In this document: piece by piece, positions 4,385 through 12,338 of the stretch | Layout: every line of letters begins with the position of its first letter | Position numbering within the stretch: position 1 is the first letter of the stretch | Assembly (NCBI GenBank): GCA_002708715.1 | Contig: PAPB01000028.1 | Location: 8,611 to 72,610, forward strand | DNA from: Fidelibacterota bacterium | GTDB taxonomy: Bacteria; Fidelibacterota; Marinisomatia; Marinisomatales; UBA1611 | Reading direction: 5' to 3' | DNA: 64,000 nucleotides | Program-made: the position numbers and the translations under genes | The notes under the pieces: generated by a model | What the model saw: the letters and a program-made list of their open reading frames with translations, nothing else | What the model was told of the DNA's origin: nothing | Database searches by the model: none

Positions 4385-5707
4385 TCACAAAGTTAATGCA
4401 AAAGAGTTAACAAGTATACCAGGACAAGTTGTTGCCCCCAAAGATCTCTTACCATAAGTACTGGTTTCAGGAATCACTGTTAATTTATCTTCAACTTCAA
4501 CCAATTGATCCCCAAAAAACCTATAAAAAGAATCATCAAACCTCATGGTCTCAATTGGTGCTACAATCTCACCTTGCTCTACCCAAAAACATGCGTAGCG
4601 TGTTAAACCAGTGATACGTCCACCTGGATTATCACTCCAATTTAAATAATGTATATTTGAAAGATACAGGCCCTTATCTAATTGTTTTAAAACATTATCA
4701 TGATTTAAACTTCCAGAAGCCATTTTAGGAGATCGCAGGTATTCACCAGATTCAGCGTAATTGGAATTCAAATTATATTCTTTAGCTGAACGAGAGCTAA
4801 CCAATGTATTTTCTAATTCACCCTTTTTAATCAATAATAGTGAATCTTGTGATACTTCTCCCTCAGAATTGAATTTAGGACAAAACCCTGGTGAAAAATC
4901 TTCTGCTATTGAAAATTTAGGAGACAAGCGAACATCTTCATGGCGCATACGTCCAAAACCACTACATCCCTGTCTAAGACTAGCCTCACTAATACCATTC
5001 CAAGAGAACATGCCCAAAAAATCAGCAACAGCTGCAGCTTCGAACCATGTTTTGTATTCACCTGTATCAATTTTAACAGGTTTACGCTCCATTATTGCTA
5101 ATTTATTTTTACTATTTTCTACATATTTTTCATATTCATTCTGATTCCAATTATTACCTGCATAGCAACCCTTAACCATCTGGTGTGATGGTGTAACGAG
5201 TGAATAATCTAGGCAATGTGATTCTGTTTCAAACCAATGTTTTTGTCCAAGACTATTGGCATTACCCCTAAACATTTTACCATTCACCCAAATACCTACA
5301 AAGTCCATTCCTTGCATAACAGGTATCAAAGCATCAACTGCATCTTTAAATGGCAATCCATTCACGGATTTAATTTCATGACTTGAACCAGAATTTTGCG
5401 GTAATACAAGAAACGGATCTTCTGGTATTTCTTTTGCTTCAAGCCTCATACGTGCTATTTCACTTTTTCCTCTTTCAAGATCGACTGACTGATTTCCAGA
5501 AACCGTAAATGCTCCATTGCAGGTTCTTCCATTAGCAATATATTTAAGTTCAATTGCTGCATCATCCACTAAACCTGTTTGACGAATAGATGCATTGTTA
5601 AATCGAATAAACTGACTATTTTCCCCATCAAAAGAGATGACAAGATGCTCATGGTCATCAATACAGGAGAAAAGAGCTTCACTTAAACTGTTAAATATCA
5701 TTTCCAT
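4385..5707 (-). CDS. TldE/PmbA-family subunit of the TldD/E metalloprotease
   Basis: SQFIRFNN, ITGLTRYACFWVEQGEIVAPIETMRFDDS; no HExxxH; start reassigned to ATG 5707 (TAATG overlap with tldD, SD GGAGG). Confidence 0.88.
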   Translation of the reverse strand: MEMIFNSLSEALFSCIDDHEHLVISFDGENSQFIRFNNASIRQTGLVDDAAIELKYIANGRTCNGAFTVSGNQSVDLERGKSEIARMRLEAKEIPEDPFLVLPQNSGSSHEIKSVNGLPFKDAVDALIPVMQGMDFVGIWVNGKMFRGNANSLGQKHWFETESHCLDYSLVTPSHQMVKGCYAGNNWNQNEYEKYVENSKNKLAIMERKPVKIDTGEYKTWFEAAAVADFLGMFSWNGISEASLRQGCSGFGRMRHEDVRLSPKFSIAEDFSPGFCPKFNSEGEVSQDSLLLIKKGELENTLVSSRSAKEYNLNSNYAESGEYLRSPKMASGSLNHDNVLKQLDKGLYLSNIHYLNWSDNPGGRITGLTRYACFWVEQGEIVAPIETMRFDDSFYRFFGDQLVEVEDKLTVIPETSTYGKRSLGATTCPGILVNSFALTL

Positions 5708-7149
5708 TATACACCTCCAAATACTTGGATATTTCCAAATAAGCATGCTGGAGAAGCATGCCCAACTCTAATAACCTGATTCGGCTCCCCTTTGCCACAA
5801 TTTGGCGTACCATATATACCAAATGTATCTGCATTACCAACGCCCTTTAAACTATTCCAAAATGGTATAGAGATTCCTCTATAATTAGGATTTTTAACTA
5901 CCTGAGTTAATCTACCATTCTCAATTAATCTTCCGTATTCACATCCAAACTGAAATTTATTTCTGTAGTCATCTATTGACCAGGATTTATTACTTTCCAT
6001 ATAGATACCATTTTCAACAGAACCTATTAAATCATCAAATGAAGACATACCTGGCTCCAAGTTAATATTTGCCATACGATCTATTGGAGCTCGGTTCCAT
6101 CCACTAGAGCGAAAATTAGCCACACCGTCTAATCCTGATCGGATCTGACTCTCTTGGCCTCCAAGGCCTCTTAAAAGCGTACCTTCTTTAATTAAATATT
6201 CTTTACTTGCTTTCAATCCTCCATCATCAAATGCATATGAAGCAAATTCTGACTCTAATGTGGGATCAAAGGTAATATTCATTAAATCAGATCCATATTT
6301 TAATTTTCCAAAATCATCTAATTTAACAAAACTCCATCCTGCATAATTTCTCTCATCTCCGAGAATTCGATCAACCTCCAACGCGTGCCCTATACTCTCA
6401 TGAATTTGTAACATCATTTGATCTGGTGCGATGACAACATCCATTTCACCAGAGGGACACTCAACTGCAGTAAGGAGCTCTAGTGCCTGTTCACCAATAC
6501 GATTAGCATTGGAAAGGATCTCATATTTATCAAAAAACTCAACGCCCATTTGGCGACACGTCCCTCTCATTCCACCAAACGTTCGTGTTTGCTGATTAGA
6601 GCCATCAGCAGCAGTAGCACTAAGGTCAAATTCTAGCATTAAAAACTCTTGATTGATATCACTCCCATTGGAACTAATAAACCGAGAACTAGTTTCTATA
6701 ATCTGACATAAAGAAGATGCACTGACAATTTTATCAGATACCTTAAGATTATTATAAGCACTCAGCAATAATTGATTCAAACTTCCAGCTGAAAGGGATT
6801 CTCTATCTTTAGAATATGGAGAATGGTATTCACCTTTAAAAGGTGGACGAGCTTTTAAATCAAAAGAAAAGACAGAATATTTTGAAGCCATTTTTGCTTG
6901 TCTATAGGCTCTTACGGCAGCATCTGCTATACCTTCATTAGTCATATTCGGTGTACCATAGTATCCAAACTGACCATCAACTAACACTTCGACCATCACA
7001 CCATGGGTGGCATATCTTCCATTAGCTACAGGAACACCATCTCTAATCATTCGAGGAGTGTGAGCTTCATATACCTCCCGCATCCCAACCCAATCTGCTG
7101 GAACATCTATTGCACCTAATAATTCTTGAAGATTAATATTTAATTTCAT
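5707..7149 (-). CDS. tldD: TldD-family metalloprotease
   Basis: QIHESIGHALEVDR Zn motif, PIDRMAN, CGKGEPNQ..VGHASP. Confidence 0.92.
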   Translation of the reverse strand: MKLNINLQELLGAIDVPADWVGMREVYEAHTPRMIRDGVPVANGRYATHGVMVEVLVDGQFGYYGTPNMTNEGIADAAVRAYRQAKMASKYSVFSFDLKARPPFKGEYHSPYSKDRESLSAGSLNQLLLSAYNNLKVSDKIVSASSLCQIIETSSRFISSNGSDINQEFLMLEFDLSATAADGSNQQTRTFGGMRGTCRQMGVEFFDKYEILSNANRIGEQALELLTAVECPSGEMDVVIAPDQMMLQIHESIGHALEVDRILGDERNYAGWSFVKLDDFGKLKYGSDLMNITFDPTLESEFASYAFDDGGLKASKEYLIKEGTLLRGLGGQESQIRSGLDGVANFRSSGWNRAPIDRMANINLEPGMSSFDDLIGSVENGIYMESNKSWSIDDYRNKFQFGCEYGRLIENGRLTQVVKNPNYRGISIPFWNSLKGVGNADTFGIYGTPNCGKGEPNQVIRVGHASPACLFGNIQVFGGV

Positions 7150-7447: not shown

Positions 7448-7879
7448 ATGACGTTAGTAAAATGGAAACAAAACTCATACAATGAATTAGATTCAATGGT
7501 TAAAACAATATTTAACACCGATTGGAACTTCCCATCGCAAAACATACAAGAATGGGCACCACCAGTTGATATAAAAGAAACGGATAAGGTTTTTATAATA
7601 AAATCTGATATTACGGGACTTACAAAAAAAGATATAAAAATAAACATCAAAGATAGATTATTAACTATTTCAGGTGAACGGCAAGAAGATGTAAATAACA
7701 GTGATGATTATTACCACTATCGCGAAAGATCAACTGGGAAATTTCATAGATCTTTCAACCTTCCTGAATCAATAGATGAAGATAAAATTAAAGCAAACTT
7801 TAAAAATGGAGTATTGATAATTGAAATTGAAAAACATGAAGATATTCTTCCAAAAGAAAAAGAAATCAAAATAAACTAA
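7448..7879 (+). CDS. Hsp20/alpha-crystallin small heat-shock protein
   Basis: PPVDIKET, LTISGER, RERSTGKFHRSFNLP, ANFKNGVLII. Confidence 0.95.
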   Translation: MTLVKWKQNSYNELDSMVKTIFNTDWNFPSQNIQEWAPPVDIKETDKVFIIKSDITGLTKKDIKINIKDRLLTISGERQEDVNNSDDYYHYRERSTGKFHRSFNLPESIDEDKIKANFKNGVLIIEIEKHEDILPKEKEIKIN

Positions 7880-7886
7880 GAAAGTA

Positions 7887-7910
7887 AGGTGGGGGCTTAT
7901 GCCCCCACCT
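7887..7910. terminator. GC-rich hairpin between convergent genes, probable (bidirectional) terminator
   Basis: AGGTGGGGGC-ttat-GCCCCCACCT, perfect 10-bp stem just after the hsp20 stop; U-tract weak. Confidence 0.75.
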
Positions 7911-7948
7911 CTTAAACTACAAAGATTTGAAAATAAATCTATAAATAC

Positions 7949-9436
7949 TTAAAAGCTATTTTTCTTAATAGGTATTTTTAATTCTCTACAAGAATTTTTA
8001 AGCGCATTATAGTACTTACGAGGACCACTATAGAATACGCTGCAATTCAAATCAGAAAATTTTTTTCGAGACTCTGTAAGCTTATCACTCCAGTTGGGCA
8101 GACCAAAATTAGTAATATCCCAAAGATTATCAATTAGAGATACCTTTGTACTTTTATCAACCGCATTAGTTGCTATATACATAAGTTTCTCATTAAAAGA
8201 ATCTGGGGATTTATCCACAAAATATATATGATAATTAAACATATCAGAATCATCATTTATATCTTGTAGAAGTTTAGTAAACCATTCAAAATATACGTGA
8301 TCCTCAATAATCCAATGAAGGTCTATTCTTTTAAGTAAAATTTTATTGGAATCATTATTTAAACGTAAAGCAATATCCTGAAGTATTGGAGCTATGCGTG
8401 AGATTCCATGGCCAGCTCCTACTAAAACAGCATGCTCAGTATCTATTATTGATTCACTCGATTCGCCATAGGGTCCATCTAGCCTAATCATCCAATCAAG
8501 AGCGGCGTCTTTTTCGATAACTCTAAGAGTCTTATCATACAGTTCTTTGGACCACCTATCATTTGATTTTACATGCAAAACCAAATGTCCCTCACTATTC
8601 CTTTGAATAATATTAAAAGGATACCACTCAGTCGAAGAAATCTCTTTACAATTTATATATACATAATCACCAGGTTTATAATGAAAATTATCTGATACTG
8701 ATACTGATAATTCTAGAACTTTTGAAGGAAGCAAACTAACAGATTCTAGTTTAACGTTCTTCCGATTCTTTTTTCTATTCATTAAAACATTATAAAAAAA
8801 AATAAATCTTGGAATTAAAAGCCACTTAAATACACTTATATCTTGAACTTGTATACTTTTTTTTGGTTTATTTTTTTTCGAACTAGATGTATTAGCTTTT
8901 AAAAGTGCATCTTCGTATCTATCAGGAATAAGCCAATTCACAGGGTTAACCGCAAAACCTTCAATAAAATCTGGATAATCATGTGCAACATTTAAAAACT
9001 CATCAAAATCTATTGTGTCGCTATGATCCAGATCAGCCCTTTTAAAAAAATCCTCGACAAGTAAATCTAGTTGAAACTCATCAAAGTCTAAGCTATTCTC
9101 AATAAAGCTTTGCTTAATCAATATTTTTAGCTCTTCCCTATCTATATAGCCACTATTATCAAGATCATGAAGTTCAAAAGCAAAACGAATTTTTTCTTTT
9201 TCATCTCCATAGATTACAGATTCAATAGTGCCCATAAACTCATTATAATCAATAGATCCACTGCCATCTTTATCAAAAATATCAAACAATCTATCAGAGA
9301 TATCCTTGTTGGACAATTCAAGACCATTTTGAAACTCTTCTCGATCTATTAACTGATCATCCCCAGCTATTTCACGAAACTTATTTTTCAAGTCAATTAA
9401 AAATGGTCCTGCAAGTTTTTTTGATTTATTTATCAC
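7949..9436 (-). CDS. NOX5-like protein: four EF-hands plus FAD/NAD(P)H dehydrogenase domain, without the heme transmembrane domain
   Basis: EF loops AGDDQLIDREEF, DKDGSGSIDYNEF, DLDNSGYIDREEL, DLDHSDTIDFDEF; LLPSKV..FHYKPGDYVYIN..EWYPF; LDGPYG; VLVGAGHGI; VFYSGP; ends KNSF. Confidence 0.85.
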   Translation of the reverse strand: MINKSKKLAGPFLIDLKNKFREIAGDDQLIDREEFQNGLELSNKDISDRLFDIFDKDGSGSIDYNEFMGTIESVIYGDEKEKIRFAFELHDLDNSGYIDREELKILIKQSFIENSLDFDEFQLDLLVEDFFKRADLDHSDTIDFDEFLNVAHDYPDFIEGFAVNPVNWLIPDRYEDALLKANTSSSKKNKPKKSIQVQDISVFKWLLIPRFIFFYNVLMNRKKNRKNVKLESVSLLPSKVLELSVSVSDNFHYKPGDYVYINCKEISSTEWYPFNIIQRNSEGHLVLHVKSNDRWSKELYDKTLRVIEKDAALDWMIRLDGPYGESSESIIDTEHAVLVGAGHGISRIAPILQDIALRLNNDSNKILLKRIDLHWIIEDHVYFEWFTKLLQDINDDSDMFNYHIYFVDKSPDSFNEKLMYIATNAVDKSTKVSLIDNLWDITNFGLPNWSDKLTESRKKFSDLNCSVFYSGPRKYYNALKNSCRELKIPIKKNSF

Positions 9437-9523
9437 AGATGTTTTCCATGTTAAGATTGATATACATCCCCTAATTTATCGAAAGCATTTTAATCTAAAA
9501 GAGAACTTTTTAAGGCTATTTAA

Positions 9524-10480
9524 ATGATTCATAATAATATTTTATCAACCATAGGCAATACACCTGTAGTAAAATTAAATAAAATTGGCTCAAAACTACC
9601 ATGTGAGTTATATGCAAAATGCGAATTTTTTAATCCAGGTGGATCCATAAAAGATCGTATTGGCTGGAAAATGGTAGAAGATGCAGAAACAGAAGGAAGA
9701 ATTAAACCTGGTGACACACTCATTGAGCCAACCTCTGGAAATACTGGACAAGGTATCGCACTGGCTGCTGCAGTAAAAGGCTATCGCTGTATTATTACTA
9801 TGCCTGAAAAAATGAGTCAAGAAAAACAAATTGCTCTTGAGGCTCTTGGAGCTAAAATAGTAAGGACACCTACTGAGGCAGCATTTGATGACCCTGAAAG
9901 TCACATTGGAGTTGCAAAAAAACTACAGAGTGAAATTAAAGATTCTCATATACTCGATCAATATGGAAACCAATCCAATCCTGATGCACATTACCATGGA
10001 ACAGCACAAGAGATCCTTGATGAATTTGGCTCAGATTTGCACATGGTCGTAATGGGTGTTGGAACAGGAGGCACAATAACAGGTGTCGCAAAACGCCTAA
10101 AAGAAGCGATACCAAATATCATCATTGTAGGAGCAGACCCTGTTGGGTCCATTCTTGGCGGAGGTAATAAAGTTAAACCTTATCTTGTAGAGGGCATTGG
10201 ATATGATTTTTTTCCAGATGTCTTAGACAATAACCTAGTTGATAAATACGTAAAAACTGAAGATGAAGAATCATTTCTCCTAGCCAGACGCCTTATCAAA
10301 GAAGAAGGACTATTATGCGGTGGATCATGCGGAAGCGCAATGGCAGCCGCTCTACAATCAGCAGAAAAACTTGATCGTAATCAAAAATGTCTTGTTATTC
10401 TTCCAGATGGGATAAGAAACTATATGACCAAATTTCCGAATGATGAATGGATGAGATCAAAAGGGTTTAAAACTGATTAA
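9524..10480 (+). CDS. Cystathionine beta-synthase-type PLP enzyme (catalytic core only)
   Basis: [15 protein letters not shown] (PLP Lys), [49 protein letters not shown]. Confidence 0.88.
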
Positions 10481-10517: not shown

Positions 10518-12338
10518 GTGCTATGGGTAGCCCCTGTCATCTATTTTAACTTTTCATATCCAGAGACTGAATGGGACTGGGATAGAATTGACACACAAGA
10601 CATCCACTTTCCTAAATCATTTGCATGGGGAACCGCGACTGCGGCCCATCAGGTTGAGGGAAACAATACAAACAACAATTGGTATCAATGGGAGAATGAA
10701 GTAGATGAAGACAACCTTCCACGGATTCATAATGGAGACAAATCATCCATAGCCGCTGATCATTGGAAAAGGTACCCTGATGATATCAAACTAATGAATG
10801 AATTAGGTGTTAACCACTATCGATTTTCTATTGAATGGTCGAGGATTGAGCCTGAAAGAGGAGTCTTTAACCTAGATGCCATTAACCACTATCGAGACCT
10901 ATGTGACTCTCTTCTGAAAAATAACATTACCCCAGTAGTTACCCTCCACCACTTTACTCATCCTATATGGTTTGAAGAACTTGGCGCATTTGAAAAACAA
11001 GAAAATATAAAATATTTTATAAAATACTCTGAATATGCATTTAATAATCTCCAAGACCTAGTTCCTATCTGGTGTACCATCAATGAGCCATCCGTATTTG
11101 TCTCTCAGGGGTATTTTAACGGGATATTTCCTCCAGGAAAAAAAGATCCAGTATTGGCTGCTACAGTTCTGGAGAATCTTCTCAATGCGCATACAAAAGT
11201 CTATAAACATCTAAAAGAATTGAAAGGAGGAAGCAAAGCCCAGATTGGTCTTGTGAAAAATATATTTCAATTTGATCCACTCAGAAGGTGGCACATTCTT
11301 GACTGGATATTTAGCAATGTTTTAAATAATGTTTTTACTAATTCATCTATAGACTTTCTCAAGACAGGTCATTCTACTTTTTCCCTGCCAGGGATGGTAC
11401 ATAAAGAAATGATAAATCCTGATGCGGTAGGAGCACTTGATTTTATTGGACTCAACTATTACTCAAGGATGCATGTGATAGGCCAAGCCAGTCTTGCAGA
11501 ACCTTTTTTATTTGAAAAACGTGAAAAAGATATCCAAACGGATATGGACTACGCTTTATACCCTGAAGGATTTTATAAAGCGCTCCACACAATAAGTACC
11601 CTTGAAAAGCCTATATATGTTACTGAAAATGGTGTTGCAGATCATGGAGATAGTATTCGGACACTATTTATCAAACGCTACCTCTATGCACTAAATATGG
11701 CACTCAAAGATAGGCTCGATATCAGAGGATATTTCTACTGGACCCTGATGGATAATTTTGAATGGGCAGAAGGCTATAAAATGAAATTTGGCCTCTACGA
11801 AGTAGACTTCAATACCCAAAAACGTACTCTCAGAAAGAGCAGTAAACCATTTATTGATATGGTTAAAAAAAGAGGCGCTGATGAGCGTGGATATATAGTA
11901 GGCATAGGTGACGATGCTCCAGATTTCACCATGGAATATACAACAGGTGAAAGAGTCACTCTATCACAGTTAAAAGGCCAGGTAGTGGTTCTACAATTCA
12001 CCGCTAGCTGGTGTTCGGTGTGTAGAAAAGAGATGCCACACCTTGAGAAAGATGTCTGGCAAGCATTCAAAGATAAAGGAGTCAAACTAATTGGGATAGA
12101 TAGGGATGAACCTCTGGAGACAGTAATTAAGTTTCAAAAAGATATGGGTACTACATACCCTCTTGCTCTTGATCCTGGAGCTAATATTTTTGGATTATTT
12201 GCTGATAAAAACTCTGGAGTTACCAGGAATATTGTTATTGATCAACAAGGGAAAATTGTTTTTCTAACCAGATTATTTGATCATAATGAATTTAATAAAA
12301 TGATAGAGGTAATTGATAATTTGGTTAACTCAATTTGA
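10518..12338 (+). CDS. GH1 beta-glycosidase fused to a C-terminal TlpA/AhpC-TSA thioredoxin-like domain
   Basis: FAWGTATAAHQVEG, TINEP (acid/base), YVTENG (nucleophile), DNFEWAEG; then APDFT..FTASWCSVCRKEMP; true start is probably further upstream (about 10473). Confidence 0.9.
   Translation: MLWVAPVIYFNFSYPETEWDWDRIDTQDIHFPKSFAWGTATAAHQVEGNNTNNNWYQWENEVDEDNLPRIHNGDKSSIAADHWKRYPDDIKLMNELGVNHYRFSIEWSRIEPERGVFNLDAINHYRDLCDSLLKNNITPVVTLHHFTHPIWFEELGAFEKQENIKYFIKYSEYAFNNLQDLVPIWCTINEPSVFVSQGYFNGIFPPGKKDPVLAATVLENLLNAHTKVYKHLKELKGGSKAQIGLVKNIFQFDPLRRWHILDWIFSNVLNNVFTNSSIDFLKTGHSTFSLPGMVHKEMINPDAVGALDFIGLNYYSRMHVIGQASLAEPFLFEKREKDIQTDMDYALYPEGFYKALHTISTLEKPIYVTENGVADHGDSIRTLFIKRYLYALNMALKDRLDIRGYFYWTLMDNFEWAEGYKMKFGLYEVDFNTQKRTLRKSSKPFIDMVKKRGADERGYIVGIGDDAPDFTMEYTTGERVTLSQLKGQVVVLQFTASWCSVCRKEMPHLEKDVWQAFKDKGVKLIGIDRDEPLETVIKFQKDMGTTYPLALDPGANIFGLFADKNSGVTRNIVIDQQGKIVFLTRLFDHNEFNKMIEVIDNLVNSI

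What the first reader, a model, noticed from the sequence alone, without database searches (positions are those of the whole stretch)
7949..9436. NOX5-derived EF-hand protein with the heme transmembrane domain deleted and altered cofactor motifs
Seen: four EF-hands, then YPDFIEGFAVNPVNWLIP, a ~30-aa K-rich linker, FKWLLIPRFIFFY, and directly the dehydrogenase domain, in one intact 495-aa frame. Established (from recall): NOX5 has four EF-hands, six TM helices with heme His residues, and a last helix FWKWLLVP..LFF followed by LLPSKV..FHYRPGDY..EWHPFTIS; full-length bacterial NOX5 is known in cyanobacteria. Here TM1-5 are missing, only a TM6-like remnant stays, and key motifs have drifted (HPFT to YPFN, GIGITPF to GHGISRI, CG to SG, ENF to NSF). 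Inference: it cannot make superoxide alone and may be a Ca2+-gated flavin reductase, a Ca2+/nucleotide-sensing pseudoenzyme, or a partner of a separately encoded ferric-reductase membrane domain.
Basis: partly seen in the sequence, partly recalled or inferred. Interest (0 to 1): 0.8.

Follow-up and report, generated by a model that had tools for sequence, protein, structure and literature searches.

The report
Haem-less, membrane-domain-less NOX5 relative
This gene encodes a conserved marine-bacterial relative of the calcium-activated NADPH oxidase NOX5 that kept the calcium sensor and the NADPH/flavin module but lost the haem-bearing membrane domain, so it is probably a calcium-controlled reductase rather than a superoxide generator.

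Summary
Window 7949-9436 (-) is an intact 495-aa ORF with EF-hands, FAD_binding_8 and NAD_binding_6 and no Ferric_reduct domain. Its best solved relative is human NOX5. The match is colinear except that NOX5 residues about 168-372 (TM1-5 and half of TM6) have no counterpart.

It is neither a mis-assembly nor a decaying copy.
- All 120 listed homologues share the architecture, at 43-79% identity.
- It is found in 29 of 36 related genomes of one Marinimicrobia/Fidelibacterota family, always in the same syntenic slot.
- dN/dS is about 0.04-0.13.

The truncated proteins form one clade on a long stem. Full-length NOX5 also exists in the same bacterial family.

A separately encoded ferric-reductase membrane partner is not supported. 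The own genome has none, and the only three hits above the cut-off in 54 family genomes are full-length NOX5.

The calcium loops, the glycine nucleotide motif and DGPYG are invariant. HPFT, TPF and CG are replaced by family-specific residues.

Best reading: a Ca2+-gated NAD(P)H flavoprotein reductase, possibly held at the membrane by the TM6 stub, with an unknown acceptor. In three genera it heads a tight operon with SDR and FMN-reductase genes.

The parts
7949..9436 (-). Whole CDS: 495 aa plus stop, GTG start. Haem-less, TM-domain-less NOX5 paralogue.
8978..9436 (-). Residues 1-153: conserved N-terminus plus the EF-hand domain. It is colinear with the NOX5 EF domain.
   Evidence: query 17-170 to NOX5 14-167.. 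(column identity 0.68-0.79).
9332..9370 (-). EF1 region (residues 23-35), non-canonical as in NOX5. G25, D27, I30 and E34 are invariant in 40 of 40 sequences.
   Evidence: PMC7317449 Discussion (NOX5 EF1 is non-canonical but binds calcium).
9239..9274 (-). EF2 loop (residues 55-66), canonical. D55, D63 and E66 are in 40 of 40 sequences; D57 in 39 of 40.
9131..9166 (-). EF3 loop (residues 91-102), canonical. D91, G96 and E102 are in 40 of 40 sequences.
8999..9034 (-). EF4 loop (residues 135-146). D135 and E146 are in 40 of 40 sequences. Loop position 6 is D here and G in 29 of 40.
8909..8977 (-). Residues 154-176: post-EF segment YPDF..AVNP..W..PDRY. It aligns with the end of the NOX5 EF domain and the approach to TM1. 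P155, V163, P165 and W168 are invariant.
   Evidence: PMC11088703 passages on the preTM1 helix that caps the NADPH pocket.
8852..8908 (-). Residues 177-195: variable, mostly basic linker that stands where TM1-TM5 lie in NOX5. This is the deletion junction.
   Evidence: column identity 0.24. (pLDDT below 50 at residues 182-193).. (X6 contigs tile it).
8759..8851 (-). Residues 196-226: invariant QV, then a hydrophobic helix (remnant of the C-terminal half of TM6, with invariant P209 followed by R/K210), then the basic stretch NRKKNRK.
8456..8761 (-). Residues 226-327: FAD_binding_8 sub-domain. It holds WYPFN (271-275) in place of WHPFT, and DGPYG (320-324).
7952..8434 (-). Residues 335-495: NAD_binding_6 sub-domain. 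It holds GAGHGISR (340-347) in place of GxGIGVTP, FEWF, G-L-P-N-W, FYSGP (468-472) in place of FFCGP, and a C-terminal Phe.
7886..7911 (-). GC-rich hairpin (11 pairs) between the convergent stops of this gene and the Hsp20 gene. It resembles a terminator, which fits a monocistronic gene in this genome.
   Evidence: 1 site found; 0.8 expected from shuffles.
9437..9523 (.). 87-bp divergent intergenic region shared with the cystathionine-beta-synthase-like gene.
   Evidence: No promoter evidence: one search found 12 promoter-like sites against 17.2 expected.
7448..7879 (+). Conserved neighbour: Hsp20 small heat-shock protein, convergent with the gene.
   Evidence: (12 of 12 loci).
9524..10480 (+). 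Conserved neighbour: PALP enzyme, cystathionine beta-synthase-like core, divergent from the gene.
   Evidence: (TIGR01137, 514.6 bits against a cut-off of 510.25). (12 of 12 loci).
10518..12338 (+). Conserved neighbour: a fusion of a GH1 glycosidase with an AhpC/TSA redoxin domain.
   Evidence: (11 of 12 loci).

Best explanation
The gene encodes a functional, neofunctionalised paralogue of bacterial NOX5. An internal deletion removed TM1 to mid-TM6, and with them both haems.

What remains is the part of NOX5 that, in the human enzyme, gates hydride transfer from NADPH to FAD in response to Ca2+: the four-EF-hand domain, the segment that follows it, and the FAD/NAD(P)H dehydrogenase domain.

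The protein most likely binds Ca2+ through EF2-4 (and the non-canonical EF1). It then docks on or releases the dehydrogenase domain as NOX5 does, switching on an NAD(P)H-dependent flavoprotein reductase activity.

With no haem to receive electrons, the flavin must reduce something else at its exposed edge: a free flavin, a quinone, a metal chelate or a partner protein.

The uniformly hydrophobic, Pro-kinked TM6 stub has basic stretches on both sides. It probably holds the enzyme at the cytoplasmic face of the membrane and does not span it.

Shown: architecture, descent from NOX5, conservation, fold, and absence of a ferric-reductase partner.
Inferred: Ca2+ gating, retained catalysis, membrane-peripheral location, and the acceptor.
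For: 1. Descent and architecture.
- Pfam finds EF-hands, FAD_binding_8 and NAD_binding_6 and no Ferric_reduct.
- Human NOX5 is the best PDB sequence hit (E 1.2e-54), colinear on both sides of the gap.
- The AF2 model (pLDDT 77.8, pTM 0.67) superposes on the csNOX5 DH domain at Z 25.9, rmsd 2.0 over 237 residues.
- The model also superposes on whole human NOX5 8u85_A over 409 residues (model 7-495, rmsd 5.1, Z 25.8). The EF and DH domains are therefore placed much as in NOX5.

2. The gene is functional.
- All 120 listed homologues lack PF01794, and 116 of 120 are 478-507 aa, at 43-79% identity.
- The truncated form is in 29 of 36 related genomes of the family. It was found in 0 of 24 genomes of other families of the order, and in none of the 275 genomes of other families in the phylum sample.
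- The syntenic slot is the same in 12 of 12 loci.
- NG86 dN/dS is 0.042-0.126 in the 10 of the 15 closest pairs with finite dS.
- The truncated proteins form one clade with SH-aLRT 100 on a stem of about 1 substitution per site.

3. Calcium site.
- Loop positions 1 and 12 of EF2, EF3 and EF4 (D55/E66, D91/E102, D135/E146) and D63 are invariant in 40 of 40.
- Loop position 3 of all three loops (D57, D93, D137) and position 9 of EF3 and EF4 (D99, D143) are Asp in 39 of 40.
- The EF domain is more conserved (0.68-0.79) than the DH domain (0.56-0.61).
- csNOX5 is Ca2+-activated and needs its EF domain (PMC7317449, section 10, Table 2).
- In human NOX5 the EF domain, preTM1 and REFBD act on the NADPH pocket, that is, upstream of the haems (PMC11088703, passages).

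4. Nucleotide and flavin site.
- W271, P273, F274, D320-G-P-x-G324, G344, W375, W385, P447, W449, F468 and G471 are invariant, and G342 is nearly so.
- 44 of the positions that are at least 80% conserved in 38 full-length sequences keep the same residue. 10 are switched to a different conserved residue.

5. TM6 stub.
- Column identity is 0.71. Q196, V197, P209 and N216 are invariant, and position 210 is R or K in 40 of 40 where full-length proteins mostly have G.
- Kyte-Doolittle mean is 1.47 (1.1-1.71 in four other family members) with a very low helical moment. Median net charge is +2.5 before the stub and +4 after it.

6. No haem partner. PF01794 is absent from the own genome. The only hits above the cut-off in 54 family genomes are the three full-length NOX5 genes.

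7. Redox context. In genera g13 and g7 the gene overlaps or abuts an SDR gene followed by an NADPH-dependent FMN reductase gene (gaps of -1 to 27 nt). coordinates and the blast show the FMN reductase downstream on the same strand in 6 of 20 genomes that hold both genes.
Against: No activity, cofactor or Ca2+ binding has been measured.

Several signature residues that touch FAD or NADPH in NOX and FNR enzymes are replaced:
- HPFT becomes YPFN (Y in 34 of 40, N in 32 of 40).
- HIR becomes H-x-K.
- GIGVTPF becomes G-x-G-I/V-S-K/R.
- CG becomes SG (S in 31 of 40).
- The Arg of GRPxW is lost.
- The C-terminal aromatic residue is missing in 7 of 40.

From recall, not from a call: the equivalent His-to-Tyr change in human NOX2 (H338Y) depletes FAD, and Cys-to-Ser changes in FNR-type enzymes slow hydride transfer.

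The EF domain is more conserved than the catalytic domain. That would also fit a sensor role.

In the window's own genome the gene is monocistronic, and the FMN reductase lies on another contig. The operon clue does not apply here directly.

The two REFBD aspartates of csNOX5 do not map onto strictly conserved acidic residues (my reading of the alignments).

The helix 202-218 has only about pLDDT 58. No transmembrane predictor was available, so the membrane-peripheral placement is inference.
Confidence: 0.5

Rival explanations
1. Calcium-sensing pseudoenzyme. The dehydrogenase domain no longer turns over. It serves as a nucleotide-binding or purely structural scaffold, so the protein reports Ca2+ (and perhaps the NAD(P)H/NAD(P)+ ratio) to another component or to the membrane.
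For: The EF domain, the N-terminus and the stub are more conserved (0.68-0.79) than the FAD and NAD sub-domains (0.61, 0.56). Hallmark catalytic residues are replaced: H to Y, T to N, C to S, loss of the TPF proline and of the GRP arginine. The C-terminal aromatic residue is absent in 7 of 40. The stem branch of about 1 substitution per site shows a burst of change after the deletion.
Against: The glycine nucleotide motif, DGPYG, W-x-P-F, FEWF, P-x-W and F-x-x-G remain invariant or nearly so across proteins as little as 36-43% identical to the window protein. The replacements are conservative and fixed, with no sign of random decay (Y, N, S, K). 8 of 40 members keep Cys, 6 keep Thr and 2 keep the full HPFT. 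In three genera the gene sits in an operon with two other NAD(P)H oxidoreductases.
Confidence: 0.22
2. Cytoplasmic subunit of a split electron-transfer system. The protein docks through its TM6 stub and flavin face onto a separately encoded membrane or soluble redox partner. The partner need not be of the ferric-reductase family; it could be another cytochrome, the FMN reductase (flavodoxin fold) or a quinone site. The protein would pass electrons to it under Ca2+ control.
For: The conserved hydrophobic stub with invariant Q196, V197, P209 and N216 could be a docking element. The gene forms a tight operon with SDR and FMN_red genes in g13 and g7, and has FMN_red downstream in g8. An FNR-type domain paired with a flavodoxin-fold protein is the logic of diflavin reductases (established knowledge, recalled). 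Full-length NOX5 genes of the same bacterial family lie in operons with multihaem cytochromes c.
Against: A ferric-reductase-domain partner is not supported. The own genome (88.9% complete) has no PF01794 hit. The only hits above the cut-off in 54 family genomes are the three full-length NOX5 genes. Several carriers of the truncated form that are 92-99% complete have no hit at all. In 12 of 12 loci no membrane cytochrome gene is adjacent. The FMN_red gene is linked in only 6 of 20 genomes that hold both, and was not found in 24 of 54 family genomes.
Confidence: 0.2
3. Assembly artefact, or a recently broken NOX5 pseudogene.
For: None beyond the prior chance that a metagenome bin carries a chimeric join.
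Against: The same 490-507 aa architecture occurs in all 120 listed homologues from many sources and in 29 of 36 related genomes. Contigs of an independent run (X6, records 9 and 10) tile the junction with no indels and no joints. dN/dS is far below 1. No stops lie inside the matches, apart from one split copy in G004.
Confidence: 0.01

Closest known systems
NOX5: human NOX5 (PDB 8U7Y/8U85-87) and Cylindrospermum stagnale csNOX5 (DH domain, 5O0X)
   Same: The four-EF-hand N-terminal domain is colinear residue for residue, followed by the post-EF segment, the C-terminal half of TM6, and the FAD_binding_8 plus NAD_binding_6 dehydrogenase domain. NOX5 is the best hit by sequence (E 1.2e-54) and by fold (Z 25-26). 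The modelled EF/DH arrangement resembles 8u85 (409 residues aligned).
   Different: There is no ferric-reductase transmembrane domain and there are no haem-ligand histidines, so electrons cannot cross the membrane to O2. HPFT, TPF, CG and the GRP arginine are replaced by family-specific residues. A charged R/K follows the conserved Pro of the TM6 remnant.
EF-less NOX5 variants (NOX5-epsilon/NOX5-S) and engineered delta-EF or isolated DH-domain constructs
   Same: They are also partial NOX5 molecules. The isolated csNOX5 DH domain is a stable soluble flavoprotein fragment that has been used for crystallography (entries listed).
   Different: Those lose the EF domain, or are laboratory fragments. 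This is the opposite natural truncation: EF and DH are kept and the TM domain is lost. It is fixed in a bacterial lineage under purifying selection. Delta-EF NOX5 is Ca2+-insensitive (PMC7317449, Table 2; PMC11088703, passage).
Full-length NOX5 of the same bacterial family (G031, G028, G005; 662-663 aa)
   Same: It has the same domain order and 32-44% identity to the query in both the EF and DH parts. It groups with the truncated clade in the tree, with weak support (SH-aLRT 63 and 75.7).
   Different: It keeps Ferric_reduct (E 9.2e-11), HPFT, GIGVTPY, FFCG and the ENF end. It sits in an operon with multihaem cytochromes c, not in the Hsp20/CBS slot.
Soluble FNR-superfamily reductases: flavin reductase Fre/LuxG, cytochrome b5 reductase, ferredoxin/flavodoxin-NADP+ reductase
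   Same: They share the two-domain FAD/NAD(P)H fold (VIA Z about 15-16 to b5R, FNR and flavodoxin reductase; E. coli Fre 1qfj in the Foldseek list). The proposed job is the same: NAD(P)H to flavin to an external acceptor.
   Different: NCBIfam scores are far below the cut-offs (Fre 25.4 against 230; LuxG 23.6 against 340). None of these has an EF-hand regulatory domain or a TM6 stub.
Calmodulin-gated diflavin reductases (the NOS reductase domain), by analogy only, from recall
   Same: Both couple a Ca2+-sensor protein to control of electron flow out of an FNR-type flavin domain. In three genera a flavodoxin-fold FMN reductase gene is co-operonic with this gene.
   Different: Here the sensor is fused and derives from NOX5. 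There is no fused FMN domain. No interaction with the FMN reductase was tested.

Membership tests
NOX5 (EF-hand NADPH oxidase) | N-terminal four-EF-hand regulatory domain | tested here: met
   (EF-hand models, E down to 2e-17). (query 17-170 colinear with NOX5 14-167). (Ca-ligand positions 39-40 of 40).
NOX5 (EF-hand NADPH oxidase) | Six-helix ferric-reductase transmembrane domain with two bis-His haem sites | tested here: not met
   no PF01794 at E <= 1. TM1 to mid-TM6 absent. The control full-length homologue scores PF01794 at E 9.2e-11.
NOX5 (EF-hand NADPH oxidase) | FAD_binding_8 sub-domain with the HPFT flavin motif | tested here: inconclusive
   The domain and fold are present. The motif is YPFN here. 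Across 40 members position 272 is Y in 34, H in 5 and F in 1; position 275 is N in 32 and T in 6.
NOX5 (EF-hand NADPH oxidase) | NAD_binding_6 sub-domain with G-x-G-x-x-P, CG and a C-terminal Phe | tested here: inconclusive
   The domain and fold are present. G342 and G344 are kept. The Pro is replaced by K/R in 40 of 40. The Cys is replaced by Ser in 31 of 40. A terminal F or Y is present in 32 of 40.
NOX5 (EF-hand NADPH oxidase) | Ca2+-activated transmembrane superoxide production | not testable with these tools
   This needs enzymology. The haem route is structurally impossible without the TM domain.
FNR-like flavoprotein reductase superfamily | Two-domain beta-barrel FAD module plus Rossmann-like NAD(P)H module | tested here: met
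   Z 14.8-16.0 over 208-230 aligned residues to b5 reductase, FNR, flavodoxin reductase, NqrF and BenC. secondary structure.
Fre/LuxG NAD(P)H-flavin reductase (NCBIfam equivalogs) | Score above the curated cut-off | tested here: not met
   25.4 bits against 230 (PRK08051); 23.6 against 340 (LuxG).
Calcineurin-B/CBL/NCS-type EF-hand sensors | Stand-alone four-EF-hand protein of about 170-220 aa | tested here: not met
   Similarity exists (E 1.6e-22 and weaker). The EF domain is nevertheless fused to a dehydrogenase domain, and its best match is the NOX5 EF domain.

The most novel reading that the evidence does not exclude
The protein is a Ca2+-switched, membrane-peripheral NAD(P)H oxidoreductase. 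The old TM6 stub places its flavin at the lipid surface. Electrons leave to a quinone, a free flavin or the co-operonic flavodoxin-fold FMN reductase. Functionally this is a bacterial, NOX5-derived counterpart of calmodulin-gated diflavin reductases. It would be a rare case of cytoplasmic Ca2+ signalling directly controlling redox metabolism in an abundant, largely uncultured marine heterotroph lineage.
Probability: 0.13. Interest if true: 0.8.

Novelty: new variant of a known kind. Interest (0 to 1): 0.62.

Why it matters
1. A natural soluble NOX5 regulatory core. The protein is the natural form of the 'EF domain plus dehydrogenase domain' core of NOX5, free of the membrane domain. [quoted passage not shown] A stable protein that keeps just these parts would make the question directly testable by crystallography, NMR and stopped-flow, without detergents.

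2. NOX evolution. A NOX enzyme can shed its defining haem domain and still be kept under strong selection for a different job. This bears on how NOX, FRE and FNR modules are recombined in evolution.

3. NOX5 in bacteria. Bacterial NOX5 has been described as 'very few' cyanobacterial sequences (PMC9421330, passage). Here both full-length and truncated forms occur in Marinimicrobia/Fidelibacterota. Close full-length relatives carry names from Kapabacteria and Myxococcales.

4. Bacterial calcium signalling. This would be one of few candidate Ca2+-regulated enzymes in bacteria.

No paper in the searchable library combines Marinimicrobia with NADPH oxidase (0 papers). None of the listings I read describes this architecture.

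Tried and rejected
- Complex prediction of the EF domain (residues 1-176) against the stub segment (190-235): no verdict, score 0.01 against a mark of 0.32. The idea that the stub is an intramolecular calmodulin-type target of the EF domain therefore remains untested. Its near-zero helical hydrophobic moment does not fit a classic amphipathic target helix.

- 'Non-orthologous displacement'. Genus g2 lacks the truncated gene and holds FMN_red plus SDR in the same slot, so I first read this as displacement. I rejected that when a blast showed the same two genes directly downstream of the truncated gene in other genera. Loss of the truncated gene in g2, and relocation of the pair elsewhere, is simpler.

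- Kyte-Doolittle threshold of 1.6 as a TM test: unreliable here. The control six-TM full-length protein of G031 barely reaches 1.62.

- Promoter scan: 12 sites against 17.2 expected, so no evidence.

- Sister relation of the truncated clade to the Marinimicrobia full-length NOX5: favoured but not shown (SH-aLRT 63, 75.7). No AU test was needed or informative. Both trees are 'quick' searches, and many rows have deviant composition.

- Mapping of the two csNOX5 REFBD aspartates: ambiguous to within 1-3 residues, and not strictly conserved.

- RNA evidence: two RNA-library contigs lie on the EF-coding part, X18 at 9190-9346 and X19 at 9024-9174. They hold small word shares (0.08, 0.07), and DNA carry-over cannot be excluded.

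- X4 contigs do not bridge the junction by the 31-nt rule.

- Other short NOX-like representatives (P0175, P0218, P0245, P0260, P0261, P0259) all retain Ferric_reduct. P0239 is a 379-aa DH-only protein or fragment without EF-hands. No second, independent EF+DH lineage was seen among the top 150 representatives.

- Supplementary figures of PMC11088703 and PMC7317449 (interface details) were not available.
Full report
**Observation.** Window 7949-9436 on the minus strand is one open frame of 495 codons starting at GTG.
- Pfam finds several EF-hand models (E down to 2e-17), FAD_binding_8 at residues 226-327 (E 2.3e-20) and NAD_binding_6 at 335-483 (E 2.5e-15). There is no Ferric_reduct hit even at E <= 1.
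- Against all PDB sequences the best hit is human NOX5 (E 1.2e-54), in three colinear stretches: 17-170 to 14-167, 202-302 to 373-475, and 307-486 to 509-710. NOX5 residues about 168-372 have no counterpart.
- An alignment with eight full-length bacterial NOX5 homologues places the gap from just before TM1 to the middle of TM6. It removes the helices that carry the haem histidines.

**Not an artefact, not a decaying copy.**
- A search of 5.8 billion proteins returned 267 hits. None of the best 120 lists PF01794. 116 of 120 are 478-507 aa, at 43-79% identity to the query.
- Three of these carry source names, all Candidatus Marinimicrobia/Neomarinimicrobiota. The language-model atlas places the same architecture in Fidelibacterota.
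- Among 36 related genomes of the same family, 31 match. 29 of these have the truncated form, and G005 and G031 have only a full-length form. None of 24 genomes from other families of the order matches.
- In a sample of 301 genomes of the phylum, matches at E <= 1e-20 are confined to this family (21 of 25). The one exception is a full-length gene in another family (G284).
- In 12 of 12 loci the gene sits in the same slot: PmbA-TldD, Hsp20, the gene, a cystathionine-beta-synthase-like PALP gene, then a GH1-AhpC fusion gene.
- Among 19 coding sequences, the closest pairs give NG86 dN/dS of 0.042-0.126 (10 of 15 pairs with finite dS). Synonymous sites are near saturation (median pS 0.76), so the ratios are rough but far below 1.
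- Two contigs of an independent metagenome run tile the junction with no indels and no joints: X6 record 9 at 8477-8894 and record 10 at 8865-9315.

**Origin.**
- The same bacterial family also holds canonical NOX5 genes of 662-663 aa (G031, G028; a copy cut by a contig end in G005). These have Ferric_reduct, HPFT, GIGVTPY, FFCG and an ENF end. G028 has both forms.
- In a tree of 61 proteins the 23 truncated sequences form one clade (SH-aLRT 100) on a stem of 0.98 substitutions per site.
- With only the 482 shared columns and 46 rows, the clade is again 100 on a stem of 1.06. It groups with the Marinimicrobia full-length pair at 75.7, which is favoured but not shown.
- The nearest named full-length relatives are cyanobacterial (Planktothrix, Tychonema, Cylindrospermum, Acaryochloris), Kapabacteria and Myxococcales.
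- The simplest history is one internal deletion in a NOX5 paralogue at the base of this family, a burst of change, and then stasis.

**What is conserved.** Results come from a 40-member alignment with counts.
- Ca2+ ligands: positions 1 and 12 of EF2, EF3 and EF4, and D63, are invariant (40 of 40). Position 3 of all three loops (D57, D93, D137) and position 9 of EF3 and EF4 (D99, D143) are Asp in 39 of 40. EF1 is non-canonical, as in NOX5 (PMC7317449, Discussion).
- Column identity by region: N-terminus 0.79, EF1-2 0.68, EF3-4 0.74, post-EF segment 0.72, linker 177-195 0.24, QVQ plus hydrophobic stub 0.71, basic patch 0.78, FAD module 0.61, NAD module 0.56.
- In the dehydrogenase domain these are invariant: W271, P273, F274, DGP-G (320-324), G344, W375, Y382, W385, P447, W449, F468 and G471.
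- Among positions at least 80% conserved in 38 full-length sequences, 44 keep the same residue and 10 are switched to another conserved residue. The switches include H272Y, T275N, R290K, P326S, T346S, S354D and C470S. The rest are relaxed, including the SSAPE stretch after HPFT, I343, P347 (K/R in 40 of 40) and the TGL stretch.
- A minority keep ancestral states: H at 272 in 5 of 40, T at 275 in 6, C at 470 in 8. P0099 and P0100 keep the full HPFT.
- The C-terminal aromatic residue is present in 32 of 40.

**Structure.**
- AlphaFold2 with the family alignment gives pLDDT 77.8 and pTM 0.67. The linker (182-193) is disordered, and the stub helix 202-218 scores about 58.
- Foldseek ranks human NOX5 first, and the csNOX5 DH domain at TM 0.88-0.90.
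- VIA-align gives Z 25.9 (rmsd 2.0, 237 residues) to the csNOX5 DH domain.
- It gives Z 25.8 to human NOX5 8u85_A over 409 residues spanning model 7-495 (rmsd 5.1). The EF domain is therefore modelled against the DH domain roughly as in NOX5.
- Generic FNR-type reductases follow at Z about 15-16.

**Mechanism.** In csNOX5, activity requires Ca2+ and the EF domain (PMC7317449, section 10). In human NOX5, Ca2+ moves the EF domain, displaces REFBD and loosens the preTM1 helix that caps the NADPH pocket, which triggers NADPH-to-FAD transfer (PMC11088703, passages read). These steps lie upstream of the haems, and their parts are all retained here. I therefore read the protein as a Ca2+-gated NAD(P)H flavoprotein reductase whose electrons leave from the flavin.

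The stub (residues 200-218) is uniformly hydrophobic.
- Kyte-Doolittle mean is 1.47, and 1.1-1.71 in four other members.
- Helical moment is near zero.
- It has an invariant Pro followed by R/K in 40 of 40, and basic flanks on both sides (median net charge +2.5 and +4).

With positive charge on both sides and no signal peptide, a membrane-spanning topology is unlikely (positive-inside rule, recalled). A monotopic or re-entrant anchor, or a docking element, fits better. This step is inference.

**Partner question.**
- PF01794 is absent from the own genome, which is 88.9% complete.
- In 54 family genomes only three hits exceed the cut-off, and all three are the full-length NOX5 genes. Three weaker hits lie in genomes without the truncated form.
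- Carriers of the truncated form that are 92-99% complete have none.
- A separate ferric-reductase membrane subunit is therefore not supported. A partner of another kind is not excluded.

**Operon clue.** In G028 the gene's stop overlaps the start of an SDR gene by 1 nt, and an NADPH-dependent FMN reductase gene follows 27 nt later. In G024 the gaps are 4 nt and -1 nt. G025 has the FMN reductase downstream. By coordinates the FMN reductase is also downstream on the same strand in G035, G016 and G010. In all, it is linked in 6 of 20 genomes that hold both genes. In the window's genome it lies on another contig, without an SDR neighbour. This places the protein among NAD(P)H oxidoreductases but does not name its acceptor.

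**Against the enzyme reading.**
- The substitutions fall on exactly the residues that contact FAD and NADPH in NOX and FNR enzymes.
- From recall, H338Y in NOX2 depletes FAD, and Cys-to-Ser slows FNR-type enzymes.
- The EF domain is better conserved than the catalytic module.

A Ca2+-sensing pseudoenzyme therefore remains a serious rival.

**Novelty.**
- No paper in the searchable library holds both 'Marinimicrobia' and 'NADPH oxidase' (0 papers).
- Listings for NOX5/bacterial/EF-hand/ferric reductase domain, for Marinimicrobia/SAR406 with NADPH oxidase/EF-hand and for the Pfam domain names with EF-hand and bacteria show no description of this architecture.
- The FRD-superfamily study (PMC3591440, passages) and the NOX evolution study (PMC9421330, passages) mention only cyanobacterial NOX5 among bacteria. 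Their supplements could not be seen.
- Public annotations call the protein 'EF-hand domain-containing protein', 'hypothetical protein' or a generic reductase.

I rate it a new variant of a known kind.

Noticed in passing
L013 4507-10584 (G031) and L014 4229-10171 (G028): The full-length NOX5 genes of this bacterial family lie directly downstream (0 nt apart in G031, a 4-nt overlap in G028) of three genes on the same strand. These are a 486/503-aa protein with 10 CxxCH motifs, a 320-aa protein with 4 CxxCH motifs (Cytochrome_C554 hit), and a 453-499-aa porin-like ORF. This suggests a NOX5-type transmembrane conduit that feeds periplasmic multihaem cytochromes, with O2 not necessarily the acceptor.
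   Followed up: partly
L018 8033-10761 (G028); L019 6846-9551 (G024); L024 (G025): In genera g13, g7 and g8 the truncated NOX5 gene is followed on the same strand by an SDR gene (242 aa) and/or an NADPH-dependent FMN reductase gene (161 aa). Gaps are -1 to 27 nt in G028 and G024. In genus g2 the SDR and FMN reductase occupy the slot without the truncated gene, and in G068 the SDR is itself reduced to a 92-aa remnant.
   Followed up: partly
window 10518-12338 (+): A 606-aa fusion of a GH1 glycosidase (residues 30-453) with an AhpC/TSA-type redoxin domain carrying a CxxC (residues 463-581). It is conserved next to the locus in 11 of 12 related loci. This is an unusual domain pairing.
   Followed up: no
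window 9434-9436 and the homologous starts in L002-L027: The first in-frame start of the gene is TTG or GTG in 15 of 19 coding sequences examined. Some database entries add a 12-residue upstream extension from an ATG (P0031, P0040).
   Followed up: no
window 4385-7149 (-): The TldD-like (480 aa) and PmbA-like (453 aa) metallopeptidase genes overlap by 40 nt. They are conserved beside the locus across the family.
   Followed up: no
G004:C43:15700-17182: In one genome of the same genus the truncated NOX5 gene appears split. Matches to residues 1-332 and 314-494 lie in different frames, with a TAA inside the second match. This could be a frameshift, an assembly error or a broken copy.
   Followed up: no
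proteins P0124, P0137, P0139; atlas rows 7 and 9: Full-length EF-hand NOX5-like proteins carry source names from Kapabacteria and Myxococcales/Myxococcota as well as several cyanobacteria. This is wider than the 'very few cyanobacterial sequences' stated in PMC9421330.
   Followed up: no
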